A DNA stretch of 49,198 nt from a bacterium (GCA_041642635.1 JBEPWB010000001.1:1-49198), one strand, 5' to 3'; counted from the stretch's first letter, positions 5,993-30,353 are shown. Made by a program: numbers and translations. The notes: generated by a model from the letters alone, not told the origin.

Positions 5993-7636
5993 CTAATTCT
6001 GATCTGGACAAGTTCACCACTGTGGTTGTAATGAAGATGAAAATATTGAATAAGTATCAAATCTGTCAGGTTTTGAACTTATATTACTAACACACCAATT
6101 TCTTAAATCTTGATTAAATGAATCTGAATAAGTAAACATTTCTGCCATATTAGTAACATTACTTGTATCCCATCATCCTATATCTCTATTAAACAAATCT
6201 GTACTAAAAAACATTCTTCTCATATAAACAACATTGCTTGTATCCCAACTTAATATATTTCCATTAAATGATTTATCATACATAAACAGACTATTCATAC
6301 TAGTAACATTACTTGTACAAGCTGTTTCTAACAAAGATTGATTTTCACGTATACTGTATAGTCAGTATGAATCATATGCAGTATAAGTAATTCAATTTAC
6401 TTCTCAATAATCTCATGGATTAGCTCAGTTACAAGTTATTGTAATACCATTAGGTGATAATTCAAAATTATCTGAATTTTCTCATCAAGTTGGCAACACA
6501 TAATCATTAAACTTAATATAAACATTTTTTGTATCATAAAAATTTTCATCTAAAAGAGCAACACTAGTATCAATCATAATGTTAAGGTCTTCTAAATTAT
6601 TAAATGTAACAAAAGCATTTCTTGGTCATATATTATTGTCAAAATATACAGTATTATAACTAAGATTTCAAGAGTTAAAGTTATAAATATAAAAAGATTG
6701 ACTATTATCGTTTCACAAAAAATACATAGCATCATTTTCAACCCATCAATATCAATCATTCCAATCTCAACAATTAAAAGCTTGATCATCACACCAATAT
6801 CAATTAGGATTATTTCACTCAAATGCCCAGACTCAATTAGATACATAATTATCAATAAAATCATTAGTATAAAGATTGTCTCATTTCCATTGATTAACTT
6901 CTTCTTCTATAATACATTCCTCATTTAAATTTATTTTTGCTGTTATAACTTCATCTTCATAAATCGTTGTTCATCAACAATCTGTTCAGTTACTTGAGTT
7001 TTGATTATTTTCATTTTCTATTATTTTTTGTTCTATTATTCATCATGAAAGTGTTTGTGGTCATTCTTTCCTTCTAAAGATTGCAGTATAATCATTACCA
7101 TCTGATAAGTCTATATCTTCTGTAGAGTTTTCTTGTACTGGTACATTTGTCACTGGTTCCATTAATACTCATAGAGAATCTCATATAACATACGGATATC
7201 TATTTTCATAATTCGCATATGTTGTTGGTACCAAATTATTATTAGAAATTAAATCATTCTCTAGTAACGCCATTAATTGAAATTTTGTTTTACTAGAGTT
7301 TGTTGTATATGTATAAAAAGTATCATCTAATGGGTCTTTTGCATTATTACTCACTCTTATATTATTTAATGTTCATGTTCATGAATATCATTGTATTAAA
7401 TAATTTGTTGTTCAACTTCATATATTTATTCCATTATCTGGTGATAATAGTACTCATTCTCTTGCTTGTTCTAGTTGCAATCATGTCCTTATTTGTCACA
7501 AGTCACTTATTCTTTTACTATCTCTTGAATCTCAACTAAATCATTGTAGTGAAATAAAAGCTATTGTTCATAGTATTGCTAGAATAGTAATTACTACTAT
7601 TAGCTATACTAGCGTAAAACCTTTTTTGTGTTGCAT
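5993..7636 (-). pseudogene. Type IV pilin-like protein with C-terminal DUF285/BspA-like repeats, interrupted by TAG at the Glu5 codon
   Basis: MQHKKG/FTLV-TAG-LIVVITILAIL prepilin N-terminus. The single in-frame stop is at 7604-7606, where the paralog has GAG. The remaining 537 codons are open to TAG 5993-5995. The C-terminus has repeats of the form NVTSM..LF / WDTSNV..M..MF / FNQDL..W.VSN. Confidence 0.75.
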
Positions 7637-7772: not shown

Positions 7773-7847
7773 TGGCAGTCCCACTAGGAATCGAACCTAG
7801 ATCGCAGGATTTGGAGTCCTGAATTCTAACCGTTGAACTATAGGACT
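7773..7847 (-). tRNA. trnW: tRNA-Trp (anticodon CCA), CCA end encoded
   Basis: 75 nt cloverleaf: acceptor AGTCCTA/TGGGACT, anticodon loop CTCCAAA, T-arm CTAGG-TTCGATT-CCTAG. Confidence 0.9.
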
Positions 7848-7876: not shown

Positions 7877-8662
7877 TTATATAGAAAATCTGTGAAAAGC
7901 AATAATATTACCTTCTCATACGAAAGTTTTAACTTTTACATTTGGATCCATAACAAAAGGTTGTTCTAATAGAGAAACTTCAGATTTGAATTTTCCCATT
8001 TTACCTTCGATAATTTTTAATAAAACATCGTCTGGTTTTCCTTCCATTTTTGGATCATTTTTCATGATTTCTAATTGAATTCCTTTTTCTTTTTCTAATG
8101 CTTCATCAGAAATTTCATCTGGAGATAAAAATTCTGGATTACTTGCAGTAACATGCATAGCAACTTGTCTAGCTTTTTCTGCATCAGTACCTTCTTTAGC
8201 AACGATTAATGCAGCTAATTTTCAGTTAGAGTGAACATATTCAGAAACAACATCACCTTCAACAATTTCATAATTAGAAATTTGTAAGTTTTCACCCATT
8301 TCCATAGCATAATTACTATTAATGAATTCTTGAGCAGCTTCTTTTGAATCAGAACCATTTTCTTTTAAAAATTCTACAACTTTATCAAGCATAGCTTTAA
8401 ATTTGTCAGAATTTGCTAAGAAATCTGTTTCACAAGAAACAGAAACGATATAAGCTTTATTACCTTCAGTAACAATTTTTATACCACCCTCAAAAGTGTC
8501 TCTGTCAGCTTTTTTTGCAGCTTTAGCTAAACCTTTTTTTCTTAATTCTTCAATAGCTTTTTCCATATCACCATCAGTTTCAGTAAGAGCTTTTTTACAT
8601 TCCATCATACCGATACCAGTCATTTCTCTTAATTCTTTTATTTGAGCAGCTGTAATTGCCAT
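7877..8662 (-). CDS. tsf: Elongation factor Ts, 261 aa
   Basis: N-terminal UBA-like MAITAAQIKELREMTGIGMMECKKAL. The two track ORFs join through TGA codons 8222-8224 and 7916-7918. Confidence 0.9.
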
Positions 8663-9075: not shown

Positions 9076-9858
9076 TTATTCAGAAACTTTTTTAACAGTT
9101 GGTTTTTTAGTTACTTTTTTTTCTCAACTAACTTTTTTATCATCAACTTTTTTTACTTTTGAAGCATTTGAAGTTTTAGCTTGAGTACTTCCAGTTAAAC
9201 AAGAAGATATTTCAGACATAACATATTCTATAGATTTAACTGCATTTGTATTAGCAGGAATACAATTATCAACCAAAGTATCATCTCAGTTAGTATTTAA
9301 AATTGCAAATGATTTTATTTTTAAAGAGTTAGCTTCTTTAACAGCTTGATCCTCATAAACACCATCAACAACAAAAATATAATCTGGCATTTTTTTCATT
9401 TCTTTTACTCAAGCATATGCTTTTTGTAATTTTTCATGTTCTAATAATTTGGCAGCTTTTTCTTTTTTTGTTAACATATCAAAAGCACCATTTTCTAAAT
9501 CACTAGATAATTTAATGTAAGTAGAAATTCTTTTTTTGATTGTTTTAAAGTTTGTTAATAAACCTGGAACCCATTTTTCAGCAACATAAAAATGTCCTGA
9601 GTCAGAAGCTACTTGCTTAACAGAATCTCTTGCTTGTAATTTTGTACCTACAAATAAGATTTTTTTACCTGATTCATGAATTTCTTTTATTTCAGATTTT
9701 ACTTCTTCTAATTTTACAACAGTTTTAGTTAAGTCAATAACATGAACTCAATTTACTGAACCATAAATATATGATTTCATTTTTGGATTCCAGTAGTTAG
9801 ATTTATTACCGATATGTAATAAATTCTCAAACATTTTATTCAAAACAGCTTTACTCAT
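9076..9858 (-). CDS. rpsB: 30S ribosomal protein S2, 260 aa
   Basis: LLHIGNKSNYWNPKMKSYIYG..NGVHVIDL, with a basic K-rich tail. Code 25 is required. Confidence 0.92.
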
Positions 9859-9986: not shown

Positions 9987-11171
9987 TTATTTTGAAGTTT
10001 TTTCAGTTTTTTCTTCTTTAACTTCTTTTTCAGCTTTTGGTTCTTTTGCTTCTTTAGCTTTTTCTTCTTTAACTTCAGCATCTTTTGGCGCTTCTTGTAA
10101 AGCTTTTAAAGATAAACCAATTCTTTTCTTTTCTGGTTCAAAGTTAATAATTTTAGCAGTAACTTCTTCACCAACTTTAACATGATCTCTAATATCTTTA
10201 ACTACTCCGTGAGAAATTTCAGATAAATGCACTAATCATTGAATTCCACCTTCTAAATCCATAAATGCACCGAATTTTGAAATTCTTGAAATAGGAGCAG
10301 TAATTGAATCATTTAATTTGTATTTTTTTGCAAGAACATCCCATGGATTTTCTTTTAATCTCTTTATAGATAAAGAAATTTTTTCACTTTCAAGTCCTAT
10401 AACTTTTACTTTTACTGTCATTCAAACTTTAGCAAATTTTGAAGGATCTGTAACGTGTCCCCAATCAATTTCAGAAACGTGAACTAAACCTTCTAATCCG
10501 TCAAAAGTAACGAATAAACCGTATGATAATATACCTGAAACAGTACCTTCAACAACATCTCCTTCTTTTAGGTTAGTTAAAGCTTTTTCTCTGTTTTCTT
10601 CTATTGCAGCTTTTTCAGAAAAGATAATTTTTTTACCAGCTTCATCTACATTTATAACTCTAACTTTAAATGGTTCACCAACTAAAGCGTCTAAGTGAGC
10701 AAGAATTTTTTCAGGATCAGCTCATTCAACTCTAGGATAATGAATTGGAGTTAATTGAGAAACAGGGATAAAACCTTTTAAACCATCAATATCTACTAAT
10801 AAACCTCATTTATTAGCTTCAGTTGGTCTAACAGTAATAATTTCACTGTTTTCGTTATATTTTGTAAGATTAGATAAATTTTTGATTTGGTTAGCTCTTT
10901 TTAGAGATAAGATTAATAAACCTCTTTCTACTGAGTCACCTAAAACCATAACATCAATTGATTGTCCAGCTGCTAAATCATTCAAGTCAATAGTATTACC
11001 TACTTCTTTTGAAACAACTAAACCAGTAAATTGATTATTAACATTTACTAAAATATTTTTCTTTTCTATTTTTACAATAGTACCAGATATAATTTCTCCT
11101 TGTTTTGGGTATTTAATTTCAGGAGATTCTGCGAACAACTCTTCAAACAGAGTTAAATCATTTTTTGCCAT
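9987..11171 (-). CDS. rpsA: 30S ribosomal protein S1 (about four S1 domains, K/E-rich tail), 394 aa
   Basis: Three track ORFs plus the 10422-10805 segment are in one frame. Repeated S1-fold motifs (G.v..i...g..v.l). Confidence 0.88.
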
Positions 11172-11524: not shown

Positions 11525-12655
11525 CTATACTTTTTCTTTTATTTTAACAAGCATTTTATCAAAAAAATCTCTAGTATCAAAACTATATTGAGTAATGCAT
11601 AAATCAGTTTTTAATAATCTTGGTCAAACTCTTCAAGAAAATAAAATATCATAATAATTTTTGTGATGCTTTAGCAAAACATTAACTCTCTTATATCATT
11701 TTGTATAAATCAAATCTTTTAAAAAAAATTGATCCGATTTAAACGAGCTAAAACGATAAAAACGATAATAATAGTGCAAAGACTTTTCTCTTGTAAATCA
11801 TTTTACTTTCAAAATCTTGTATATTTTATCTTGTTTTTGAGTTCTTGTAAGATTTTTATTTAATAGTACTTCAAAACAAGCATCATAATAAGGATTATAT
11901 TTTATTTCTGGCAAAAGTTTTCTTCAATAATAATATTCATTATATAAAGCAAATCATTCTTCTAGTTTCATATAATCAGAAAAACCATGAGTTGTTCCAT
12001 AATTTTTTATATTATTATACCTTCTGAAAAAATGAGTCATTTCGTGAAAGAATAATGTTACCAATTCCCTACTAGTGTAAGTTTTTTTTGTAGGAATAAC
12101 TAGGGTTCAAGCAGAATGAGACATAAAAGCATAAGAACCAAATTTATATTTCAATCAAGGAACTATCGTTTTAGAATATTCTAATAATTCTACTAATTCA
12201 TTTTTTGAAATTTCGTTGTAAGTTTGATTATCAGGTTCTATTATAATATTTTTTCAAATATCATTTTTACTTACTCAAAAAAAAGCTCTATTATAATAAT
12301 CATAATCCAGACCTGGATAAGATATTTTGTATTTTGGGTCTAATTTATTTGCTTCAAAATCATAAACATTTTTCAAAAAATCTATTTTTTTATAAATAAA
12401 ATCTATTTCTCAAATAAGTATTTTGTATTCATCAGAAGAAAAATTATCAATATTTTTTTTGATTTTATTATTTATTTTTTCTAACTTTAATTTTTGATTG
12501 TATAACTTTCACAAATAAATATACCTATAATCTCTTAAGTTTGGAATTTTTCCATATCAAAAAAATATAGGATTTTGAATAACATTAGATTTTTTTAGTG
12601 GTTTAATTAAATGAACATTGTTTTTTGAAATTTCTTTCAATATTTGAACAAACAT
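11525..12655 (-). CDS. MATCAP/DUF1704-like putative zinc metallo(carboxy)peptidase, paralog A, 376 aa
   Basis: HEMTH at 12032-12046, followed about 30 aa later by EEGFALYNE (a QEGLA-type motif whose Gly is a TGA codon). Confidence 0.55.
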
Positions 12656-17957: not shown

Positions 17958-18085
17958 TTGGGATCAGATTAGTTTATAAATAAGAAAGAATAAATTCTAT
18001 TTTTTTATATTATTTTTTAACAAATTCACTCTCTGGAAACAGGATTATAAAAAAAAATTATTATTCATCAAGTTTTTATAGTTAA

Positions 18086-18901
18086 TTAATTGTTAATTTT
18101 TTCAAATAATACGCACCAAGTAGAGATACTTAGGTCTTCTCATCTGATAGAATTTTCTATTGATAATTCTTCAAAACAATCTAAAACTAACTTTTTATCA
18201 TATCATCAATTCATCAAATTTCTAAGTAATTTTTTTCTTGGTTCTCTAAATCACTTTTTTATGAATTCCAAAAATAAATTATCTGAAATATTTTCAAAAT
18301 CATTATGAGTTTCAAAAAGTAAAACACTAGATTCTATTTTTGGAGGTGGGATAAAATTCTCTTTTCATACAAATATTTTTTCTGAAACATGACATTTTTT
18401 TTGTACAAAGAGACTGATTACAGAAGATTTATTTTTATTTTTTCAAAGTATTTTATCTCCCACATCTTTTTGCATCAAAATAACCATTGACTCTGGTTTA
18501 TTTTCAATATCGTACAAAAAATGTCTTAAAATAGGAGACGTTATATAGTACGGAATATTTGCAATAACAAAATAATTTTTAAATTCTGGTTCATATTTTA
18601 AAATATCGATATTAGTAATTGAAAAATCAATTCAATTTATATCAAAATCTTTATTCTCAATTCTGTTATTCAAAATATCAATCATATCGTTATCTAGCTC
18701 AACTAGATTTAGCGTTTTTGGTTTTTTTTGAATTAACTCCTCTGTCAAAGCTCAATATCAAGGTCAAACTTCTACAATATTTTTTCAGGATATTTCCAAA
18801 ATATTTGATATTTGCTGAACTATATATGAATTAACCAAAAAATTTTGTCAAAGTGATTTTTTGGCTCTAATTCAATATCTTTTTAATATTTCTATACTCA
18901 C
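18086..18901 (-). CDS. rsmA: 16S rRNA (adenine1518/1519-N6)-dimethyltransferase, 271 aa
   Basis: GTG start. LGQNFL, EVGPGYGALTE, ANIPYYITSPIL. Confidence 0.88.
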
Positions 18902-19028
18902 TAAATTATTTTAAATATTATTTTTGTAGCTTATTATAAATAAAAAATATTTTTTTACAATTTTTATATTTAATTGAAAATTAAAAAAAATATATATAAT
19001 CCCAACTAATAAAAAATAAAAAATTATT

Positions 19029-21896
19029 ATGAAAAAATTAAAGTATTTAATATTTATAACATCATTCATTATACTTAGCTTTTTGTTAACTGCAAATAAT
19101 TCTTACGCTGATATTGTATCAAATTATCCTACTATATCTGAAACAATTAATGAATGAAACTCAAACTGGATTGATATTACAAATGTAGTATGAAATGATA
19201 CAAACAACTTTGCCCAAGTAAATATGTCAAACAATCCTGATAATTCTAATACATTAATTGTTAAATGATTTAATTTTAAATCGTTTAACATACCAGTATG
19301 AGCAACTATTAACTGAATAAAAGTAGATATAGAATGGAACTGAAGCAACGATAGAATTACTGATTCTGTTATACAATTAACAAAAAATGGTAAAGATCCA
19401 TATTGAAATAATCTAGCAAAATCAAGTTTTCAAATAACAAAAAATATATCAACTTATTGATCAGAAAATAATCTATGGTGAACAACATGGAGCGATACAG
19501 AAATAAAATCAGATAATTTTTGAGTATTAATAAAATACAATAAGGAAAAATGATGAACAAGAGATGCAAAAATATATAGAGTAAAAATAACTATTGATTT
19601 TACTAATCCAGAAATAGAAAGTCCACTTAATTTTAATATTATAAATGAAAATTATTGAAATAATTGATTTTGTTATGACTTTGAAGCAATAAACAATTCA
19701 ACTCAAGATATTACTGACTGGGAAATATGATTTAATATAAATTGAGCAAATATAATTAGTAATTATTGATGAAATTTTACTAATCTTTGATGATGAGAAT
19801 ATTCAATATCGTCTTCTTGAAATATAGACACATTTCCTGTATGAAAAAAATATACATTTTGATTATGTGCTGACAGCCAAGTTTGATACATATCAAATTT
19901 GACAACAAAAAATTACAAAAATGTATGACCATTAATGCCACAAGAATACAATTTAGAAAATAATTGATTGAATGTAAATATAACTAATGAGTCTAGCACA
20001 TCTTGAAGTTTTTGTAGAGAAATAGAACTAGTAAATAATTGAAATAAGACAATTAACTGATGGATATTAGATTTTGAATTAGACCAAAATTTATCTTCAA
20101 ACTATTGATGAAATTTTTCTAAAAATTCTATAACACACACAATAACTCCATTATCAAATAATAAAATAATTAATCCTGGTGAAACTTACACTCTATGATT
20201 TTGTAGTGAATGAACAAATTTAGACAATAATTGGTCGATAGAAACTTTAACATGAATACCAGGTTTTTGTTGAAAATATTATGAATGAACGCCAGAAAAT
20301 CCATTTGATATAATGAATTCGAAATTTTCAAGAGCAGATTTTGAAATAAATTTTGACTGGTGAACACTTAGCCCATCAGAAGAATTACCAAATGATAATT
20401 TTACAGCAAAATGGGAATGAAAATTTCAAGCAAATGAATCATGAGAATATAATTTTCGTACTAAATCAGATGACTGAATAAGATTATACATAAATAATAA
20501 TATTGTAATTGACCAATGGTTAAATCAGACACAAACAGAAGCAACTTGAAACATAAATCTAGATAAATGAAAAATATATAACATTAGAGTGGAATATTAT
20601 GAAAATTCTGGAACAGCTATGGCAGAATTAGAATGGAAAGAACCTGGTAATGAAGTATTTAGTAGATTAGATTGAAATAGTATATTTCACTGAGCTTGTC
20701 AATGAGGAGTAAGCACTTGATTAGAAACTATTTTCAATTGATGAAATTGACAAGCTGGTAATATGTTTGATATTGAGATATTAAATAATGATCTTATAAT
20801 AGATGCTTTATCTATAAATACTAATACTCAAAGTTCTACTCTTCGTGTATATTATAAACAGTGAAGTTATAGTTGATTTGAAAATTCTTCTGCGTGATGG
20901 ACTCTTTTATGAGATTTTCCATTTTCATGAGCTTGAGAATGAAATCCTACATATGTAGAAATAAATCCACTAACTCTAAATAAAAATACAAATTATTCAT
21001 TTTATGTTACTGAAGTATGAACAAAATGAATTTTATATACACAATGAACTATTGAATGAAACATATTTACTCAAGATAATTTTATAATTTTCAGAGAATG
21101 ATTATGAAATAGTTTTGAATTTAAAAACAATTTTTCTCCCCGTATATGGAATGGTATAATTCATTATACTGCAATAATTGACAAAACTCCACCAGCTATT
21201 GAGTACCAAAATATAAAAAATAATGATTTATTGCCAAATTGAGACAAACAAATTATAATAGATTATTTTGATAACTCTTGATTAGATTTATCTACAATAA
21301 ATTCATCACTTTCAAAATGGAATTGAAGCGATTGGTGAACAAATATATTAAATAATCACCAAATTAATTTTAGTAATGAAGCTAATCAATCAATATACAA
21401 TTTGTCACCACTTGGATATGGTAAATATAAATTTAATTTTAATATTGATGATAATTTTTGAAACTCTAATTCAAAAGATTTGATATTTTATATAGATGAA
21501 CCAAAATTCATCATATCTGATTCAAAAATAAATATATGAAATATAAGTAGTAATAATAAAAATAATTTTAGTTCAGATTTGTTATTAGTAGTACAAACTG
21601 TTTGAGCTGGATTTGATATACAAATGAATAAAGACTGAGAACTAAGTTATTCTGGATATGATATAACAGACTGGAATTGAGATAATTGATTTTGATATGA
21701 TTGAGAACCAATGACAAATACAATAAAAAAAATAAATAATAATCAACTAATAACATCTAATACAAAAAATATAAATACTAATTGAGAAAAAAACACTTAC
21801 ATTTATACTATAAAATTTTGAGCTAATATACCCGAGAATGTAGCGGCATGAAAATATTCTTGACTTATAGATTTTAAAATAATGTTTAATTATTAA
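19029..21896 (+). CDS. Large secreted multidomain surface protein (signal peptide, two CBM2-like beta-sandwich repeats, PA14 domain), 955 aa
   Basis: Translated codon by codon with no in-frame TAA/TAG. About 79 in-frame TGA versus about a dozen GGN (hand count). PA14 signature FTAKWEGKFQANESGEYNFRTKSDDGIRLYINN...YYENSGTAMAELEWKEPG at about 20394-20650. Two GFC...W...F...fGfC repeats at about 19650-20230. Confidence 0.75.
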
Positions 21897-21900
21897 ACAA

Positions 21901-21936
21901 AAAAAATACAGTTTTAATTAAAAAACTGTATTTTTT
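21901..21936 (+). terminator. Rho-independent terminator
   Basis: AAAAAATACAGTTTT-aatta-AAAACTGTATTTTTT. Confidence 0.7.
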
Positions 21937-22037
21937 TTGACATTTTGAAAATACATATGATAGAATACAACCGCAATTGAAAAGTTGAAGTAAAATTTCA
22001 CAAAAAATTTATTTATATTATATTTTAATGTCATACT

Positions 22038-22700
22038 ATGATAAAAACAAAAATAAAAAAAGCTTTTGCTGTTGCTTGAATTACAGCTATTGCAATGACA
22101 AATTTTGGTAACGCATTTGCAGCAACTAACATAGGTACTGCTGGTGTAGAATGAGATACTTCTTTTGAAACTAATGTTGTATGGGATGATAATTTTCCTG
22201 GTACTGCTACTTGAAGTGTAAATTGAATTGAAGTAAATGCAACTGTCTTACCTACTCTGAATATGAATATTTCAGCTTCAGAAATTAACCTTGGTAATTT
22301 GATTCCATGAGTACCTGCAACATGAAACATAGGAATCGAAGTTGGGACTAATGCTGCAAATGGTGTTACAATAACTGCTAGATCAAATAGTGGAGGTTTA
22401 GTGAATGCAAGCGATCCTTCTATAATAATTAATGATCTAAACAATAGTAGCTATACTTTTAAATCTGTTGCAAACGCTATTGATTCTACAATATCTTGAT
22501 TTGAAACAACTGGTGACTTAATAGAAACAGAAGTAAACAATAACACTACTGAACATTTAATTTATGAAACCAACAAACCTGAAAGACTTGATGAAGTTAA
22601 TGCTGATTTAGATTTTACTGTAACTACAGAAGTAGATGCAGAAATGATGGCATGAAACTACAAAGATTTAATAACATTTACAGTCACAGGTAATTTCTAA
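22038..22700 (+). CDS. Small secreted protein (220 aa), candidate WxL-like/CscB-like surface protein
   Basis: Signal peptide MIKTKIKKAFAVAGITAIAMTNFGNAFA. C-terminal motif AGNYKDLITFTVTGNF. The 137 aa minus-strand track ORF 22031..22444 is its antisense shadow. Confidence 0.65.
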
Positions 22701-22703
22701 CAC

Positions 22704-22737
22704 AAAAAATACTATTCTAAACATAGTATTTTTTTTT
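22704..22737 (+). terminator. Rho-independent terminator
   Basis: AAAAAATACTAT-tctaaac-ATAGTATTTTTT plus a T-run. Confidence 0.65.
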
Positions 22738-22792
22738 GATTTTCAAGTTTTTTTTTATAATATCTATCTGAATAAAAATAATTAAATAAAAA

Positions 22793-24217
22793 ATGAAAAA
22801 ATTAGTTATATTATTTAGTATTATAATATTTATGATAAATGTAAATATTACTAATGCTAATATAGATTTAGTAGTTTCCCCTATAAGATACGAAATACAA
22901 GTAGATCCATGAGAAACAATACAAAAAACTGCAAAACTTATAAATAAGTCCGATATTACATACAAGATTGAAACTTGAGCTTCTGATTTTGAATCTAAAG
23001 ACCAATATTGAAATCCGAGCTTTGTAAGAGTAAATGAGTTAGATAATCAAAATCAATGATTAGCAAGTTGGATAAATATTGATAATCCTTGATTTATAAT
23101 AGAACCGAATCAAGAAGTTGAAATAGTTTTTGATATAAATATTCCTCAAAATGCAACTCCTTGATGACATTATGCATGAGTTTTTTTCAAAACAGTATGA
23201 AGTAACAATAGTTTATGAAGTAACTTACAAATAAAAGTAGATTATTGAGTATTAATACTCTTGAATGTGAGTTGAGAAATAATAGATAATACGTCTGTTT
23301 GAGAACCACTTATTAATATACAAAATTCAGAAATAACTTTATTAGATCAAAATTGAGAAATTCAAAATAACAGAAAAAAAGATATTTGTAAATTTATTGA
23401 TTTTACAAGTAGTGATACAGACTGAAAATGTTTTGATACAGAGTACTTTAATAATATAGCAAGTACAATAATAAATAAATTTAAAGGAGAAAACAAATAT
23501 ATTGAGCAAGAAGAAGAGAATAACTCAGAAGAAACTATTTTTAAAACATGATCTCTAAAAAATGATGATAATTTTTACATAGAAATAGATATCCCTTTTC
23601 AAAATGAAGGAAATACTCATGTTAAACCGGAATGAAAAATTATTCTAAAAGATGAAGATTGAAATGAAATAAAATGAATATGAAAAGAAATAATAAAAGA
23701 TGATAATTGAATGATAACGTGAGAAAAAATAGTTGATTATCTACCTATAAATGACCAATGAGGTAACGTATTACCAAATACAAAAAGAATATATAAAAGT
23801 GAATGGAATGGTTTTCCATACGAAAATTATGATGAAGAATGAAAAAAAACAATAAGCTATTGGACACCTTGAGAATATTATACAAACAAAAATATTTCTA
23901 ATTTATGACCAATTTTCCCATGGCAAAGAGTTAATGAAAAATTAGAACAAAAAACAATTAGCGCGCTAATAAATCTATGATATTATAACTATGAATGAGA
24001 AAATATAGAATTTAATTCAGCAGAAAAATTTGAAGTTGACTATAAAGTGAAATATATTTGAATCAATCCTTATTTCTTTCTATTTTGATGAATTGTAATA
24101 ATTTTTTTAATATTTTTCTGGATAATTATAAGAAAAATAACAAGAAAAAAATGTGAAACATGTAAAAAAACTATAAAAAAAGATATGAAAATTTGTCCAT
24201 ATTGTTGAGCCAAATAA
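22793..24217 (+). CDS. Surface protein with DUF916/NEW3-like Ig-fold N-domain, C-terminal TM anchor and cytoplasmic zinc ribbon (474 aa), CscA-like
   Basis: Signal peptide. VSPIRYEIQVDPGETI..LINKSD....WINID...IIEPNQEVEIVFDINIPQNATPGGHYAGVFF. TM helix INPYFFLFGGIVIIFLIFFWIII. CETC-x13-CPYC at 24152-24205. Confidence 0.65.
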
Positions 24218-24249
24218 AAAACAAGAAAATTATATTTTTCTTGTTTTTT
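24216..24249. terminator. Bidirectional terminator
   Basis: AAAAAACAAGAAAA-ttatat-TTTTCTTGTTTTTT. Confidence 0.7.
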
Positions 24250-24977
24250 TATCATAATGGATTTCTAGTTAAACTAGGAGTTTTTTGCCAAATTCTTTCT
24301 AAGTATCACAAATTTATCATGAATAAATCAATAATTTTATTATATTTCGTCCTGGTTTCTTGTTCGTAAAGTTTTTGAGTATCAGATTGTACTTGTTGTT
24401 GGTTTAATAACAAAGTATTATACGCAACTTCTATAAAAATATCTGTTTTCACATTCGCTAACCTTCAGCAACTTCCTCAAGTTCCCAAAAAATCTATTGC
24501 AGATTCTATAGAAACTGATTGTTGTTCATCAGGATTAGAATAAGCAAAATTATTTGTACATTCTATTGTTTCTTCATAGCTAGTTACACAAGCCTCTAAA
24601 TAAGAATTTTTAAATTCTCTTGCCTTATCTCTAATATCATTAACTCAATCAAAATAATTCAATTCTCATGCTCAAAAATATTTATCTTTTTGAGATGATA
24701 ATTCTTCCAAATAAATATCCATTTCTTCATCAATTTCTCTAAAATTCAAATCCATTGCAATTTGAGCTACTCTTTTTTCAGGAGGAGCTTGTAAACAAAC
24801 GAAATCATCAAATCCCCTCATAGAAGATCATTCATAAATATAATTTGTAGCATTATTTGGCATTATTTTTTGTATTTCGGAATTACACTGAGTTATTTCT
24901 GACTCATAATTACATGAATATGAAATAGGTAAAACTAAAAAAAATATAGCAAATAAATATAAAATTTTATAATTCAT
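24249..24977 (-). CDS. Hypothetical secreted/lipoprotein-like protein, 242 aa
   Basis: N-terminal hydrophobic segment ending in ..LPISYSC (lipobox-like). Several Cys. No family recognised. Confidence 0.5.
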
Positions 24978-25225
24978 TATTTTTTCTTAAAAAAATTAAT
25001 AGTTCAAACCATAGCTTTTCAAAAAAAACTATATGATTTTTTAAAAATATGTCATGATTTTTTAAAAATATTTGATGATTTCTGATAAACATTTCTTGTA
25101 ATAGTTTTTCATTTTTTTGTTTTTGAAAATCATACCATAGAAGCCACTGCTGTTCCTACAATAACTCAAGTAATTATTTTATCTATTTTATTTGCACCTA
25201 TTTTTACAGTTTTTTTCTTAAACAT
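24977..25225 (-). CDS. Small membrane/Gly-zipper protein, 82 aa
   Basis: GVIVGTAVASMVG helix. Its TAA overlaps the ATG of the downstream gene (TAATG). Contains a 21 nt tandem repeat. Confidence 0.4.
25034..25080. repeat. 21 nt tandem repeat, about 2.2 copies
   Basis: TGATTTTTTAAAAATATGTCA / TGATTTTTTAAAAATATTTGA / TGATT...; encodes KSSNIFKKSGHIFKKS on the minus strand. Confidence 0.8.
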
Positions 25226-25247
25226 AAGACGTATTTTTCATTATTTT

Positions 25248-25670
25248 TTAAATTTTTTGCACCTTTATATGTTTACTTGTAAAAGTAATTTTTGGTATAG
25301 TTATGACTAGTAAATTATTATCAAGATTTGCGTTAATACTATCAAAATCTAAATTTTCTGGCAAAATTATATTCCTAGAAAATTCTCACCAAAAACACTC
25401 ACTATTTTTTATTGAAATATCTCTAGAAAAAATATCTGGTCTTTTTCTGTAACCAGAAATAGTCAAAACTTGTTCATTAAAAGAAATATCTATATCATCC
25501 AAGTCAACTCAAGCAACTGGAGATAATAAAATCATTTCATTCTTTGTTTCAAGAATATCAACAGCAACTTGTCAAACTTCTTGATTTTCTTCGTCCAAGT
25601 AAAATTGCTCTTTTTTTTCACTAACTTCTTGGTAATCTTTATCACTTGTTACATTAAAAAATTTTCTCAT
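25248..25670 (-). CDS. Hsp20/alpha-crystallin small heat shock protein, 140 aa
   Basis: GQVAVDILETKNEMILLSPVAGVDLDDIDISFNEQVLTISGYR ... LDNNLLVITIPK. Confidence 0.85.
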
Positions 25671-25770: not shown

Positions 25771-26889
25771 ATGCCAAAATACACTAAATATTTAGAAGAA
25801 TTAAAGAAAAAATTCAGTAAAAATTCAGATATAAAAATCAGCTCTAAAGAAAAAATAAATCTTTTAGAGCAATTATCAAATCTGCTTTCTTCTGGGATTC
25901 CTCTTTTAAATAGTTTTAAAATTATAATGTATCAAACAAAAAACAAAAAAATAAAAAGACTCCTAAAATCAATAATTGAAAATATAAACAAATGAGATTC
26001 TTTAAGTGAAATTTTTTCAAAGCATAGAAAAATATTTTGAATTTTTGATATTTCTATAGTAGAAATGTGAGAAGTTACATGAAAACTTTGAGATTCTATA
26101 GAAACAATAAAAACAAAAGAAGAAAAATCACAAGAATTAAAATCAAAAATAATCTGAGCATTGATTTATCCAATAGTTATAGTTTGTTTATCTATAATTA
26201 TGATTTGAGTTTTTATGATTTATGTAATTCCAAAAATCGAACAAATGTATGTTGATGCAAAAGTTAACTTACCTGGATTAACAGCATGGGTTTTGGACGC
26301 ATCTAATTTTATACAAGATAATTTAACTTATATAATTATTTGAATTATTGCATTTGTTTTTTGAGTTATAACTTTCAAAAAAAACAAATTCACAAAAATT
26401 TATTGGGATAATTTTATAATTAGAATACCTATTTTTTGAATTTTAATCAAGAAAAAAACTCTTTCATTATTTACCACAAGTTTATGAATATTATTAAAAA
26501 ACTGAGTAATAATCAACAAATCACTAGAAATAAGCTCAAAAGCACTTGATAACGATTATTATGAAAAAGAACTAAAAAGTATTAATTCAAGAGTAAGTAA
26601 ATGAATTGAATTAAGTGCACTTATGTGAGTTAATGAAATACAAAGTGGTAAAGAGAATTTTTTATTCCCCATAGAATTAGCCTCAGTTGTAAAAATCTGA
26701 GAAGAAACTTGAAATCTTGCAAATTTGCTATTAAAAATTTGAAAAAAAATGGAAAAAGAAATTGACGATATTGTAAAAAATATTCAAACAGCAATCGAGC
26801 CACTAGTTATAGTGATTGTTTGATGAATAATTTGAGTATTAATAATGGCTATAATGCTTCCATTTTTTAATATGGTAAATGTTGTATAA
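25771..26889 (+). CDS. pilC: Type IV pilus / type II secretion platform protein (PilC/GspF family), 372 aa
   Basis: LSNLLSSGIPLLNSF, duplicated GspF-type repeat, ELASVVKIGEETGNL, C-terminal EPLVIVIVGGIIGVLIMAIMLPFFNM. Confidence 0.88.
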
Positions 26890-29003: not shown

Positions 29004-30353
29004 TTAATTATTTTTAAAACATCTAACAGAAAAACCACGAGAACGTCAATTAAAGCTACTAGCATAAATATTATTAGAACTAAAATACATTTGATCTCAA
29101 TTACTTCAATTAGGTGTACTAGACCAATAACCTCAATAATTTCATCAACTAAAGTTACCAGTATTACTTTCACGTATTCATGAATAAGGTAATTTAAGAT
29201 CAACTTGCATACTTGCTCCATCTGATCACCATCAACCAGCTACTATAATATCTGCCCACTCATTTTTTGATGGCACATGATATCAACTAATACAAGGTCA
29301 TTGTCTTTGTTCATCTGTTCATAATCAACCATTATGTCACCATAAATTATCATCTTGGCTTTCTAACCAATCATCTAAACTAGAAAAATTACTATTCCAC
29401 ACAAATCAATAAGTATCATTATCTGCATTATAACTAGAATTTGGAATCTTAGTAGATTGTTGTGATGTATCTCAAGAAGGAAATCATTTATTTCTACCCC
29501 ATTGAAAATAATTTCAACTTGAAACTGTCCAATCTGTACTAGCTGTTGATGTTCATATGTTACATGAAGAAACAGTATATCAAGTTCAAGATCAAGCACA
29601 GACTATTATATCTTTTGTGTCACATCATGAATAAGTTGTAGATGCCACTTCTATATCTCATAAAGAAGTACAAATTGAATAAGGATTTATAACTTCTGAT
29701 TCATTATTTGAACCAATATTATTAATAGTTTCCTCAATTTTAACAACTAAATTACTTCATGAAGAAGTTGTAGAATTATCTTCTCTTGTAAATACTGGGA
29801 TATATTCTGTAGTATTGTTTTCTAAATCTATATCTGTTGCAGATTCTAATTGATGAACTGGGGTTTTTGTTGTTCATTCTAATAATGTTCAAACTGGGTC
29901 TCAAATAGTATATGCTTCTCTATTTTCATAATCCGCATATGTTTGTGGTATTATGTTATTATATGCTGTTTCTCAATTTTCTAGCATTGATACTAATTGG
30001 TATCTTGTTTGGTTTGAATTTGTAGTATATGTATAGTATTCATCATCACTTGGATCTTTTGCTTCACTTACTCTTAATTGATTAAGAACTCATGTTCCAG
30101 CATATCATTGATGAGTATATGTTGTTCATCAACTTCATACACTTATTGCTTCTGTCGGCATTGGAACAATTCATTCTCTTGCTTGTTCTATTTGTAATCC
30201 TGTTCTTATTTGTCACAAGTCACTTATTCTCTTACTATCTCTTGATTCTGATGAATATCATTGTAAAGAGATAAAAGCTATTGTTCACAAAATTGCCAAA
30301 ATAGTAATTACTACTATTAACTCTACTAGTGTAAAACCTTTATTGTTTTGCAT
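29004..30353 (-). CDS. Type IV pilin-like protein with C-terminal Fibrobacter succinogenes major paralogous (FISUMP) domain, 449 aa
   Basis: MQNNKG/FTLVELIVVITILAILGTIAF prepilin motif. C-terminus has NYFQWGRN...GYHVPSKNEW...LKLPYSGIR...GGYWSST...RGFSVRCFKN. No in-frame TAA/TAG. Confidence 0.8.

What the first reader, a model, noticed from the sequence alone, without database searches (positions are those of the whole stretch)
19029..24217. Three-gene surface cluster whose architecture parallels the WxL/Csc cell-surface complex clusters of Firmicutes
Three same-strand genes, each with a signal peptide:
- a 955 aa multidomain protein with two CBM2-like repeats and a clear PA14 carbohydrate-binding domain;
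- a 220 aa secreted protein;
- a 474 aa protein with an Ig-fold N-domain carrying the DUF916-style signature (..V.P....i...pG......l.N.s.......WI.......l.p.....v.f.i.vP.na.pGgHYaGv.F), a single C-terminal TM anchor and a short cytoplasmic tail.

This composition is the one I know from Csc clusters of lactobacilli and enterococci: a large lectin-bearing protein (CscC-like), a small protein sharing its C-terminal domain (CscB-like) and a membrane-anchored DUF916 protein (CscA-like). Those clusters are regarded as restricted to low-GC Gram-positives.

A divergent version in a code-25 CPR bacterium would be new. Together with the adhesin-pilins it would point to a glycan-binding surface apparatus for host attachment.
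Basis: inference. Interest (0 to 1): 0.7.

Follow-up and report, generated by a model that had tools for sequence, protein, structure and literature searches.

The report
Pam-type adhesive pilus module in Gracilibacteria
Three real surface-protein genes in a UGA-recoded CPR bacterium most likely build a lectin-tipped fibre related to the newly described CPR "Pam" pilus, and its membrane-anchored helper belongs to the same family (DUF916/WxLIP) as the helper of Firmicute WxL/Csc clusters, which hints that the two systems are related.

Summary
With UGA read as Gly, 19029-24217 encodes three same-strand secreted proteins of 955, 220 and 474 aa. PA14 and two CBM2 repeats in gene 1 are solid.

Gene 3 is a DUF916/WxLIP-type protein: 20 of 22 family members hit PF06030, and the best fold match is E. 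faecium WxLIP, followed by pilus chaperones. No WxL domain was detected. Instead, 35 of 36 gene 2 relatives hit NCBIfam's CPR Pam-pilin model, below its cutoff, and the predicted fold resembles donor-strand pilins.

The gene 2 to gene 3 pair is conserved in 61 of 66 evaluable Gracilibacteria loci. It recurs next to two-domain Pam-like pilins in Roizmanbacteria and two unnamed standard-code loci. Gene 1 has a variable lectin head on a conserved C-terminal module.

Best reading: a minimal Pam-type fibre with an abundant subunit (gene 2), a membrane-anchored chaperone/anchor (gene 3) and a tip adhesin (gene 1). Polymerisation is inferred, not shown.

This is a new variant of a known kind. Extra interest comes from a possible Pam-WxL/Csc link that neither literature mentions.

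The parts
19029..21896 (+). Gene 1: 955-aa secreted modular adhesin. It has no TM helix or LPxTG motif and ends ...AAGKYSGLIDFKIMFNY.
   Evidence: Code-25 ORF; one hydrophobic segment, aa 3-25 only; Pfam PA14 and CBM_2.
19989..20255 (+). Gene 1, better-scoring CBM2-like repeat (aa 321-409). A second stretch lies upstream of it.
   Evidence: PF00553 E 2.3e-12, two stretches.
20328..20651 (+). Gene 1, PA14 carbohydrate-binding domain (aa 434-541).
   Evidence: PF07691 E 6.6e-28, 97.8 bits.
21177..21893 (+). Gene 1, conserved C-terminal incorporation module (aa 717-955). The last ~130 aa (nt 21495-21893) form a domain that aligns colinearly with the gene 2 core.
   Evidence: Shared by 33 large proteins (up to 1819 aa; a few cut by contig ends) in 27 loci whose N-terminal parts differ. 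hhalign against the gene 2 family: E 0.005, 128 columns. 4 of 21 modules touch NF058581.
21937..21966 (+). Promoter-like site (TTGACA-18-TAGAAT with an extended -10 TG) about 70 nt upstream of gene 2.
   Evidence: Consensus match 11/12. The scan as a whole is not enriched over shuffles, so this is weak evidence.
22038..22700 (+). Gene 2: 220-aa secreted subunit. Signal peptide aa 1-28 (AFA|A), conserved N-terminal extension aa 29-79, Pam-pilin-type core aa 80-220 ending ...AGNYKDLITFTVTGNF.
   Evidence: At least 250 homologues at 50-70% identity. 35 of 36 hit NF058581 and 5 hit PamT. The model of a 68%-identical homologue (pLDDT 82) matches CfaB, the TasA fibre, CsuA/B, FimF/FimA and PapH. UGA encodes only 40% of its Gly codons, against 87-89% in genes 1 and 3.
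22793..24217 (+). Gene 3: 474-aa membrane-anchored two-domain partner, the proposed chaperone/anchor.
   Evidence: At least 201 homologues. Architecture from the alignment and the model of a 55%-identical homologue. Top fold matches are WxLIP, then CfaA, CsuC and RbmA.
22862..23287 (+). Gene 3 N-domain (aa ~24-165), DUF916/WxLIP_PGBD-type beta-sandwich. It carries the ATPGGHYAGVFF motif and a low-confidence loop before the conserved strand ...VDYGVLILLNVSGEI.
   Evidence: PF06030 in 20 of 22 family members; window copy 17.6 bits over profile 19-120/121. In the homologue model residues 139-152 have pLDDT below 50 between strands 126-136 and 154-162.
23288..23557 (+). Gene 3 variable linker with an invariant Cys pair (C199, C213). 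This insertion is specific to the window's Gracilibacteria subgroup.
   Evidence: Alignments. Absent from the L071, L073, L075 and L076 partners.
23558..24052 (+). Gene 3 second beta-domain (aa ~256-420) with the conserved N.GNTH.KP.G.I and GNVLP..R motifs.
   Evidence: Alignments; model strands 249-410. No PF11797 hit.
24053..24133 (+). Gene 3 transmembrane helix (aa ~421-447).
   Evidence: Kyte-Doolittle maximum 3.07; helix 412-435 in the homologue model.
24137..24214 (+). Gene 3 cytoplasmic zinc ribbon (CETC...CPYC).
   Evidence: Zn_ribbon_3 E 1.7e-4; four invariant Cys. Present only in the window's Gracilibacteria subgroup.

Best explanation
The three genes encode a minimal, usher-less, Pam-type surface fibre of a Gracilibacteria cell. 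All three proteins are exported by Sec. Gene 3 stays in the membrane through its C-terminal helix. Its DUF916-type N-domain captures the incompletely folded C-terminal Ig-like domains of gene 2 and gene 1 by beta-strand complementation, as PapD-like chaperones do for pilins and as WxLIP is predicted to do for WxL. Gene 2 is the abundant subunit and polymerises by donor-strand exchange, using part of its conserved N-terminal extension. Gene 1 has the same type of C-terminal acceptor domain and sits at the tip, presenting PA14 and CBM2 lectin domains that bind glycans on the host or prey cell surface. Gene 3 probably also anchors the base of the fibre. What is shown: the genes, the domains, family-level homology of gene 3 to DUF916, sub-threshold but consistent homology of gene 2 to the Pam pilin C-domain, pilin-like and chaperone/WxLIP-like predicted folds, and conserved synteny across CPR lineages. 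What is inferred: physical binding, strand exchange, polymerisation, subunit order, high expression of gene 2, and the glycan target.
For: Gene 2: 35 of 36 relatives hit NF058581 CPR_Pam_pilin_C (best E 4.5e-7) and 5 hit PamT. Two-domain intermediates reached by the gene 2 profile hit that model over its full length (E 7e-12, 45.7 bits); one such relative is from Ca. Roizmanbacteria, a lineage the Pam paper names as holding remote PamA homologues. Fold matches are donor-strand subunits: CfaB, TasA, CsuA/B, FimF/FimA, PapH. The superfamily shares an invariant terminus, AGxYxDTLTFTVTGxF. Gene 3: PF06030 in 20 of 22; fold matches to WxLIP, CfaA, CsuC and RbmA, the same fold classes the Pam paper reports for PamC/D and PamR; a C-terminal TM helix as in PamC/D. 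Synteny: 58 adjacent plus 3 nearby of 66 evaluable loci, and 12 loci with tandem gene 2 paralogues. G3-type partners sit directly after Pam-like pilins in L071 (194 bits), Roizmanbacteria L073 (77 bits) and L076 (343 bits). L075 has three pilin-like genes plus two G3-type proteins, like the pam operon. Gene 1: variable heads on a conserved C-terminal module. In L025 an 883-aa propeller-repeat protein carries a true gene-2-type core (HMM positions 62-224, E 3e-56), lacking the first ~30 residues of the N-terminal extension. Gene 2 uses UGA for only 40% of its Gly codons, like the probable EF-Ts and S2 genes, against 87-89% for genes 1 and 3. No usher or sortase was found among the flanking genes scanned.
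Against: All Pam-model hits are below NCBIfam's cutoff of 55 bits; the window's gene 2 scores only 11.6 bits. Gene 2 lacks the nine-strand N-terminal domain of PamA/B/E. Fold matches for gene 2 are weak (E 2e-3 to 1e-1, TM 0.3-0.55), and TM-scores for the gene 3 homologue are low (0.24/0.40). Both models are of homologues (68% and 55% identity), not of the window proteins. Which segment is the donor strand is unresolved: the L025 adhesin retains HMM positions 62-79. No multimer prediction could be run, so polymerisation is untested. The link between the gene 1 C-domain and gene 2 is weak. I could not obtain PamC/PamD of M. amalyticus, so their relation to gene 3 is not directly tested. The ATP-synthase neighbourhood reported for pam operons was not seen among the window genes I scanned.
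Confidence: 0.55

Rival explanations
1. A non-polymerising WxL/Csc-like surface complex, closest to the first reader's reading. Gene 3 is a membrane anchor that holds one copy each of gene 2 and gene 1 by strand insertion, forming a glycan-binding platform at the cell surface rather than a fibre.
For: The top fold match of the gene 3 homologue is the WxLIP-WxL complex. PF06030 hits 20 of 22 family members. The small + large + DUF916-TM composition equals the minimal WxL cluster definition, including 1-4 small-protein copies and lectin-bearing large proteins. WxLIP is predicted to complete the WxL sandwich with a strand. Nothing here demonstrates polymerisation.
Against: No WxL domain or Trp-x-Leu motifs. 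DUF3324 is not detected. No LPxTG partner. Gene 2 matches Pam pilin models and donor-strand fibre subunits instead. The conserved N-terminal extension on the free subunit and the codon bias suggesting abundance fit a polymer better than a 1:1 complex.
Confidence: 0.3
2. Gene 2 forms a two-dimensional surface lattice or matrix (S-layer-like or TasA-like), with gene 3 as its membrane tether and gene 1 as an associated glycan-binding protein.
For: Gene 2 appears abundant, is small and very conserved, and one of its top fold matches is the TasA fibre. RbmA, a matrix scaffold, is among the gene 3 homologue's fold matches.
Against: Most gene 2 fold matches are linear pilus subunits. Sequence links are to Pam pilins, which form linear filaments. 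TasA itself forms donor-strand fibres, so this rival overlaps with the main model.
Confidence: 0.08
3. Three co-located but functionally independent secreted proteins, for example a polysaccharide-binding or degrading protein plus unrelated envelope proteins, with no physical complex.
For: PA14 and CBM2 also occur in glycoside hydrolases; the NCBIfam hit of gene 1 is to the PA14 insert of a xylosidase.
Against: No catalytic domain was found in gene 1. The gene 2-gene 3 adjacency at about 100 nt is conserved in 58 of 66 evaluable loci and across CPR lineages. The conserved C-terminal module on otherwise unrelated large proteins argues for a shared docking function.
Confidence: 0.05

Closest known systems
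Pam pilus of CPR bacteria (PamA/B/E/T pilins, PamC/D membrane-anchored chaperones, PamR anchor) of Ca. Mycosynbacter amalyticus; bioRxiv 10.64898/2026.03.03.709456
   Same: CPR-specific, Sec-exported and usher-less. The pilin has a C-terminal truncated-Ig domain (NF058581 hits in 35 of 36 gene 2 relatives). The partner has two beta-domains with a C-terminal TM helix and PapD/CfaA/CsuC/RbmA-like fold matches. Operons have several pilins (tandem gene 2 paralogues; L075 has 3 pilins + 2 partners). The pilin appears abundant.
   Different: Gene 2 is single-domain: a ~50-aa N-terminal extension replaces the nine-strand N-domain. All hits are below NCBIfam cutoffs. Only one TM-anchored partner is present, and it carries a cytoplasmic zinc ribbon and a Cys-pair insertion. 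A lectin-bearing adhesin (PA14 + CBM2) is encoded in the operon, whereas the Pam paper reports no adhesin and says host recognition is unknown. No ATP-synthase neighbourhood was seen. The lineage (Gracilibacteria, code 25) is not mentioned in that paper.
WxL/Csc cell-surface clusters of Lactobacillales/Bacillales (CscA = WxLIP: DUF916-DUF3324-TM; CscB = small WxL; CscC = large WxL; CscD = LPxTG); Siezen 2006, Hassan 2022/2023; PDB 9i1y, 9i25
   Same: A DUF916-type N-domain plus a second Ig-like domain plus a TM helix in gene 3, with WxLIP as the best fold match. The composition is small (~220 aa) + large lectin-bearing + anchored protein. The small protein occurs in multiple copies in relatives. 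The large proteins have variable heads and a conserved C-terminal domain that is related to, but distinguishable from, the small protein's. Partner binding by strand complementation is predicted.
   Different: No WxL domain or Trp-x-Leu motifs. No DUF3324 by sequence. No CscD or sortase substrate. The gene 3 family profile does not find E. faecium WxLIP in PDB sequences, so the relation shows only through the broad Pfam model and the fold. Different phylum and genetic code. A peptidoglycan-binding role is untested.
Classical, alternate and archaic chaperone-usher pili (Fim/Pap, CFA/I, Csu)
   Same: Pilin-like fold of gene 2 (CfaB, CsuA/B, FimA/FimF, PapH). A two-Ig-domain chaperone-like fold for gene 3 (CfaA, CsuC). 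The logic of a two-part adhesin (lectin head + pilin domain, as in FimH/PapG). A fixed C-terminal strand and terminus.
   Different: No outer membrane and no usher. The chaperone-like protein is membrane-anchored. No sequence-level hit to PapD families.
TasA/TapA fibres of Bacillus
   Same: A donor-strand fibre in a monoderm; TasA is the third-best fold match of the gene 2 homologue.
   Different: No SipW-type signal peptidase or TapA homologue nearby, and no sequence similarity detected.

Membership tests
CPR Pam pilus system | Pilin with a C-terminal truncated Ig-like (donor-strand acceptor) domain matching NCBIfam NF058581 CPR_Pam_pilin_C | tested here: inconclusive
   35 of 36 gene 2 relatives hit it (best E 4.5e-7), with full-profile coverage in the window copy (aa 80-220 against positions 3-148 of 148). 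All are below the 55-bit cutoff; the window copy scores 11.6 bits. Transitive support comes from two-domain intermediates at 40.9-45.7 bits.
CPR Pam pilus system | [quoted passage not shown] | tested here: not met
   [quoted passage not shown] The single-domain PamT is an exception within the system, and 5 of 36 relatives hit the PamT model weakly. Distant relatives of 270-360 aa do have the extra domain.
CPR Pam pilus system | PapD/FimC-like chaperone carrying a C-terminal transmembrane helix, encoded next to the pilins | tested here: met
   Gene 3 has two beta-domains plus a TM helix. Fold matches to CfaA and CsuC at E 4e-8 to 5e-7. Adjacent to the pilin gene in 58 of 66 evaluable loci and in Roizmanbacteria. 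Direct comparison with PamC/PamD sequences was not possible.
CPR Pam pilus system | Assembly into a filament by donor-strand exchange | not testable with these tools
   No multimer prediction or experiment was available.
CPR Pam pilus system | Conserved neighbourhood with ATP synthase genes | tested here: not met
   The genes scanned are LepA, ATP-grasp, KsgA, HSP20, T2SS-F, UPF0489, EndoIII and others; no ATP synthase hit. Not every window ORF was scanned.
WxL/Csc cluster | CscA/WxLIP: DUF916 (PF06030) N-domain plus a C-terminal TM anchor | tested here: met
   PF06030 in 20 of 22 family members, best E 2e-7. The window copy is below threshold (17.6 against 27.3 bits) but near full-length. NCBI names P0005 a DUF916 protein. 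Top fold match 9i25_C WxLIP, E 1.3e-10. TM helix.
WxL/Csc cluster | WxLIP second domain DUF3324 (PF11797, WxLIP_HBD) | tested here: not met
   0 of 22 members at E <= 0.01. A second Ig-like domain exists, and the Foldseek alignment to WxLIP is long (394 columns), but equivalence is not established.
WxL/Csc cluster | [quoted passage not shown] | tested here: not met
   Pfam WxL absent at E <= 10 in genes 1 and 2 and at E <= 5 in 36 gene 2 relatives. No W-x-L in the conserved C-terminal strands, which have two FxV motifs about 20 residues apart instead. No PDB WxL chain found by profile or among the top 50 fold matches.
WxL/Csc cluster | [quoted passage not shown] | tested here: inconclusive
   The gene arrangement matches (one anchored + one small + one large), but the two partners are not WxL proteins. 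No LPxTG protein among the neighbours.
Chaperone-usher pili | Outer-membrane usher and a soluble periplasmic PapD-family chaperone | tested here: not met
   No usher-like gene among the window genes scanned or in related loci. No PapD_N/PapD_C hit in 22 members. The chaperone-like protein is membrane-anchored.

The most novel reading that the evidence does not exclude
The CPR Pam pilus and the Firmicute WxL/Csc surface clusters are divergent versions of one ancient monoderm surface-assembly system. In it, a membrane-anchored DUF916/WxLIP-type two-Ig protein completes, and perhaps polymerises, incomplete Ig-like subunits by strand complementation. This Gracilibacteria locus is an intermediate form: a Pam-type pilin, a DUF916-type partner and a Csc-like small/large/lectin layout. 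It would also supply the receptor-binding tip adhesin that the Pam paper could not identify.
Probability: 0.35. Interest if true: 0.8.

Novelty: new variant of a known kind. Interest (0 to 1): 0.62.

Why it matters
Gracilibacteria are uncultivated and probably epibiotic or predatory. In the literature I searched their attachment is attributed to type IV pili, and this module is not discussed. This work identifies a second surface appendage module conserved across the class (70 species-level genomes), with interchangeable lectin heads. It is a concrete candidate for host recognition and host range.

It extends the newly described Pam pilus family to a lineage, and to a minimal single-domain pilin form, that the describing paper does not mention. 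It also gives that family a plausible adhesin.

The Pam-type partner protein belongs to the DUF916/WxLIP family, and neither literature notes this. If confirmed on PamC/PamD, it would explain where the usher-less CPR pilus came from. It would also recast WxL/Csc clusters of lactobacilli, enterococci and Listeria as chaperone-subunit systems.

There is a practical lesson too. Most public copies of these proteins are mistranslated with code 4, which hides these relationships.

Tried and rejected
- Table-11 ORF calling gives only fragments.
- The gene 2 HMM against all window proteins finds no paralogue and no hit in gene 1. The gene 3 HMM likewise finds no paralogue.
- The gene 3 family profile against PDB sequences finds only zinc-ribbon noise, not WxLIP.
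- The gene 3 family against NCBIfam finds no Pam chaperone model or anything else consistent.
- The gene 2 profile, P0334 and a G3-type partner against PDB sequences find no Pam pilin, WxL or WxLIP.
- The promoter/terminator scan is not enriched over shuffles and finds no terminators.
- Naming the distant relatives mostly failed; only Roizmanbacteria and Gracilibacteria names were recovered.
- I recalled an extended WxL motif (YxxxLTWxL) that resembles gene 2's YxDxITFTV. I could not verify it in the papers read and do not use it as evidence. The two FxV motifs here are about 20 residues apart, against 68-106 for WxL motifs.
- The Gracilibacteria metaproteomics paper (PMC11452946) does not mention this family in its main text.

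Full report
OBSERVATION. With the standard bacterial code the region 18000-25500 has no ORF longer than 137 aa. Reading UGA as sense raises total ORF length in the window from 10 kb to 63 kb. UGA is about 8% of gene 1 codons and falls within the conserved PGGHY motif. In a 45-sequence alignment of gene 3 homologues, columns containing UGA are otherwise filled mainly by Gly (33-36%), and Trp is not among the top eight residues. So code 25 is correct. The window is 22-27% GC, and named homologues are all Candidatus Gracilibacteria. Most public copies of these proteins are mistranslated with code 4 (Trp 7-8%, Gly about 1%). That weakens precomputed annotations and forced me to build alignments from correctly translated or UGA-poor members.

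GENE 1. Pfam gives PA14 (aa 434-541, E 6.6e-28) and CBM_2 (two stretches, E 2.3e-12). No catalytic domain was found. The protein has a signal-peptide-like N-terminus, no other hydrophobic segment and no LPxTG, so it needs a partner to stay on the cell. In 27 of 70 related loci, 33 large proteins (up to 1819 aa, a few cut by contig ends) share only the last ~240 residues of gene 1 (E 1e-23 to 1e-115) and end ...AGDYxGxIDFGIxLDY. Their N-terminal parts differ. They lie mostly directly upstream of the gene 2 homologue, in three loci between the gene 2 and gene 3 homologues, and often as two tandem copies. This is the design of an exchangeable adhesin: a variable head on a constant docking module.

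GENE 2. It defines a compact family of at least 250 close homologues at 50-70% identity; a profile search of 1.84 billion representatives finds only 200 hits at E <= 1e-3. There is no Pfam family and no WxL hit in 36 members. However, 35 of 36 hit NCBIfam NF058581, 'CPR_Pam_pilin_C, Pam pilus system pilin subunit' (best E 4.5e-7), and 5 hit PamT. All are below the curated cutoffs; the window copy scores only 11.6 bits but covers the whole profile. The model of a 68%-identical homologue (pLDDT 82) has as nearest solved folds almost only donor-strand fibre subunits: CfaB, TasA, CsuA/B, FimF/FimA, PapH and the PapG pilin domain. These matches are weak (E 2e-3 to 1e-1). The distant tail of the profile search consists of 270-360 aa (and some 600-730 aa) proteins that match with their C-terminus. 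Nearly all end with the same AGxYxDTLTFTVTGxF terminus. Three of ten tested hit NF058581 over its full length (up to 45.7 bits), and one is from Ca. Roizmanbacteria, the lineage in which the Pam paper reports remote PamA homologues. In L025 an 883-aa propeller-repeat protein carries a bona fide gene-2-type core (HMM positions 62-224, E 3e-56), lacking the first ~30 residues of the N-terminal extension. Gene 2 encodes only 40% of its glycines with UGA, close to the probable EF-Ts (11%) and S2 (31%) genes, against 87-89% for genes 1 and 3 and 70-90% for most genes. Many homologues avoid UGA altogether. I read this as a sign of high expression; that is an inference. The best intergenic promoter-like match lies about 70 nt upstream of gene 2, but the scan overall is no better than shuffled sequence.

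GENE 3. At least 201 homologues share this layout: signal peptide, N-terminal beta-domain with ATPGGHYGAVFF, a variable linker with an invariant Cys pair, a second beta-domain, a TM helix and a cytoplasmic 4-Cys zinc ribbon. The window copy hits PF06030 (WxLIP_PGBD, ex-DUF916) below threshold (17.6 against 27.3 bits) over profile 19-120/121. Across the family, 20 of 22 members hit it (best E 2e-7), and none hits DUF3324 or PapD families. NCBI already names one homologue a DUF916 protein. The model of a 55%-identical homologue (pLDDT 74) has as best PDB match 9i25_C, 'WxLIP from Enterococcus faecium locus A bound to long WxL' (E 1.3e-10), together with 9i1y. The pilus chaperones CfaA and CsuC and the matrix protein RbmA are also among the top matches. 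These are the fold classes the Pam paper reports for PamC/PamD and PamR. TM-scores are low (0.24/0.40), as expected for a two-domain protein with long disordered linkers. A low-confidence loop (residues 139-152 of the homologue model) precedes the conserved strand ...VDYGVL.LVNV. By analogy with the WxLIP hairpin and the F1-G1 region of PapD-like chaperones, this is the candidate donated strand; that too is inference.

SYNTENY AND DISTRIBUTION. A scan of species-representative genomes found 70 loci, almost all titled Gracilibacteria, Peribacteria or unclassified Patescibacteria, including two complete genomes. Of 66 loci with enough downstream sequence, 58 have a gene 3 homologue about 100 nt downstream on the same strand, and 3 more have one after an inserted adhesin gene. 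Twelve have tandem gene 2 paralogues. The pairing extends beyond this lineage:
- L071 (standard code, 35% GC): the two-domain Pam-like pilin P0334 is followed by a 373-aa protein that scores 194 bits on my gene 3 HMM, has PF06030 as its top Pfam hit, and has a TM helix.
- Roizmanbacteria L073: the pilin-like P0354 (ending ...GAGNF) is followed by a G3-type protein at 77 bits.
- L075 (standard code): three pilin-like genes are followed by two G3-type proteins (106 and 56 bits), which mirrors the pam operon.
- L076 (recoded, 48% GC): it repeats the window's order, adhesin with a G1-type terminus, then pilin, then G3-type protein (343 bits; precomputed PF06030 hit).

A cross-lineage alignment shows the core motifs and the TM helix are universal. 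The Cys-pair insertion and the zinc ribbon are confined to the window's Gracilibacteria subgroup. The genes flanking the window cluster are housekeeping genes, and no usher or sortase was found.

WHAT IS KNOWN. The Pam pilus (bioRxiv 10.64898/2026.03.03.709456) is a CPR-specific filament solved by cryo-EM from Ca. Mycosynbacter amalyticus. It has Ig-like pilins joined by donor-strand exchange, PapD/FimC-like chaperones that carry a C-terminal TM helix, an RbmA-like anchor and no usher. It was reported mainly in Saccharimonadia and Microgenomatia. The authors state that they do not know how the pilus recognises the host, and that its evolutionary origin is open. The main text does not mention WxL, DUF916, Gracilibacteria, adhesins or lectins. 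WxL/Csc clusters of Lactobacillales and Bacillales are defined as a small WxL protein, a large WxL protein with N-terminal binding domains, and a DUF916-DUF3324-TM protein (WxLIP), often with a small LPxTG protein. AlphaFold predicts that a WxLIP strand fills a gap in the WxL sandwich. No paper in the library links DUF916/WxL with CPR, and a Gracilibacteria metaproteomics study attributes adhesion to type IV pili.

INTERPRETATION. The locus is best read as a minimal Pam-type fibre: gene 2 the abundant subunit, gene 3 the membrane-anchored chaperone and probable anchor, gene 1 a lectin-bearing tip adhesin docking through its conserved C-terminal module. It fails on the defining WxL domain, on DUF3324 and on the LPxTG partner. 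I therefore do not file the locus as a Csc/WxL cluster. Membership in the Pam system is likely but formally below threshold, and the pilin is a single-domain variant. The main uncertainty is whether gene 2 polymerises (pilus) or forms a 1:1 complex with gene 3 (WxL-like platform); I could not run multimer predictions. The most interesting reading the data allow is that the Pam partner proteins and the Firmicute WxLIPs are one family, so the two systems share an origin. This rests on family-level PF06030 hits, the WxLIP fold match, and G3-type partners sitting next to Pam-like pilins in several CPR lineages. The relation of PamC/PamD themselves to gene 3 was not tested, and no similarity between WxL domains and gene 2 was detected.

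VERDICT. This is a new variant of a known kind (the Pam-type pilus), in a lineage and form not yet described, with a plausible and testable evolutionary link to WxL/Csc clusters. Interest 0.62.

Noticed in passing
window, all genes (e.g. 7877-8662 -, 9987-11171 -, 9076-9858 -, 22038-22700 +): The share of Gly codons that are UGA varies strongly by gene. It is 0.11-0.32 in probable highly expressed genes (EF-Ts-like, S1-like, S2-like) and 0.40 in gene 2, against 0.70-0.93 in most genes. UGA(Gly) seems to be avoided in abundant proteins, which could serve as an expression proxy in code-25 genomes.
   Followed up: partly
public protein databases (P0001-P0240): Most database copies of these Gracilibacteria proteins are translated with code 4 (UGA = Trp: Trp 7-8%, Gly ~1%), including the window's own proteins (93% and 96% identity to the correct translations). 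Only the NCBI entries use code 25. This lowers Pfam scores and would corrupt alignments and structure predictions.
   Followed up: partly
window 24137-24214 (+); also the cross-lineage alignment: Gene 3 carries a cytoplasmic 4-Cys zinc ribbon after its TM helix and a Cys-pair insertion in the ectodomain linker. Both occur only in the window's Gracilibacteria subgroup and are absent from G3-type partners in L071, L073, L075 and L076. The function of a cytoplasmic zinc ribbon on an extracytoplasmic chaperone-like protein is unexplained.
   Followed up: partly
window 29004-30353 (-) and 5993-7603 (-): A 449-aa type-IV-pilin-like protein (N-terminal methylation motif, E 8e-9) has a large C-terminal extension. 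A second ORF shares its post-helix region (LGQIRTGLQ.EQAREG ... YTYTTNS) but ends in a DUF285 domain (E 6e-29). The start of the second ORF was not resolved.
   Followed up: no
window 25771-26889 (+): A T2SS-F/PilC-type platform protein (PF00482, E 4e-45) lies 1.5 kb downstream of the cluster on the same strand. It belongs to type IV pilus machinery and is probably unrelated to the three-gene module.
   Followed up: no
L025 3388-6039 (+): An 883-aa protein made of beta-propeller-type repeats (FNPNANG..Y.I..Q.DGKIIIGG.FT.IGG) ends in a true gene-2-type core domain. It sits upstream of a G1-type adhesin, a gene 2 homologue and a gene 3 homologue, so one locus encodes two different adhesin docking types.
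   Followed up: partly
L076 (Logan SRR13356407 contig, 88 kb): A UGA-recoded contig (ORF total doubles when UGA is read as sense) has 47.9% GC, much higher than the 22-27% of this window, and carries the same adhesin-pilin-partner trio. Its taxonomy is unknown.
   Followed up: no
L019 (JALZVK010000236.1): A 9.9-kb contig binned as a Saprospiraceae MAG carries the Gracilibacteria gene 2-gene 3 pair (E 3e-93 and 5e-193 against my HMMs). This is probably a binning contaminant.
   Followed up: no
window 11525-12655 (-): A 376-aa protein has a borderline hit to PF08014 MATCAP, a microtubule-associated tyrosine carboxypeptidase family (27.6 bits against a cutoff of 27). This is an unusual family for a CPR bacterium.
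   Followed up: no
window 7773-7847 (-): The window has tRNA-Trp(CCA), tRNA-His and tRNA-Arg genes but no tRNA-Gly(UCA), so the decoder of UGA lies elsewhere in the genome.
   Followed up: no
window 22038-22061 (+) and alignment A3: The first eight residues of the gene 2 signal peptide (M-[IL]-K-T-K-I-K-K) are almost invariant across the family, with T4 and K8 invariant. That is more conserved than signal-peptide n-regions usually are. It may reflect a constraint at the translation-initiation or mRNA level.
   Followed up: no
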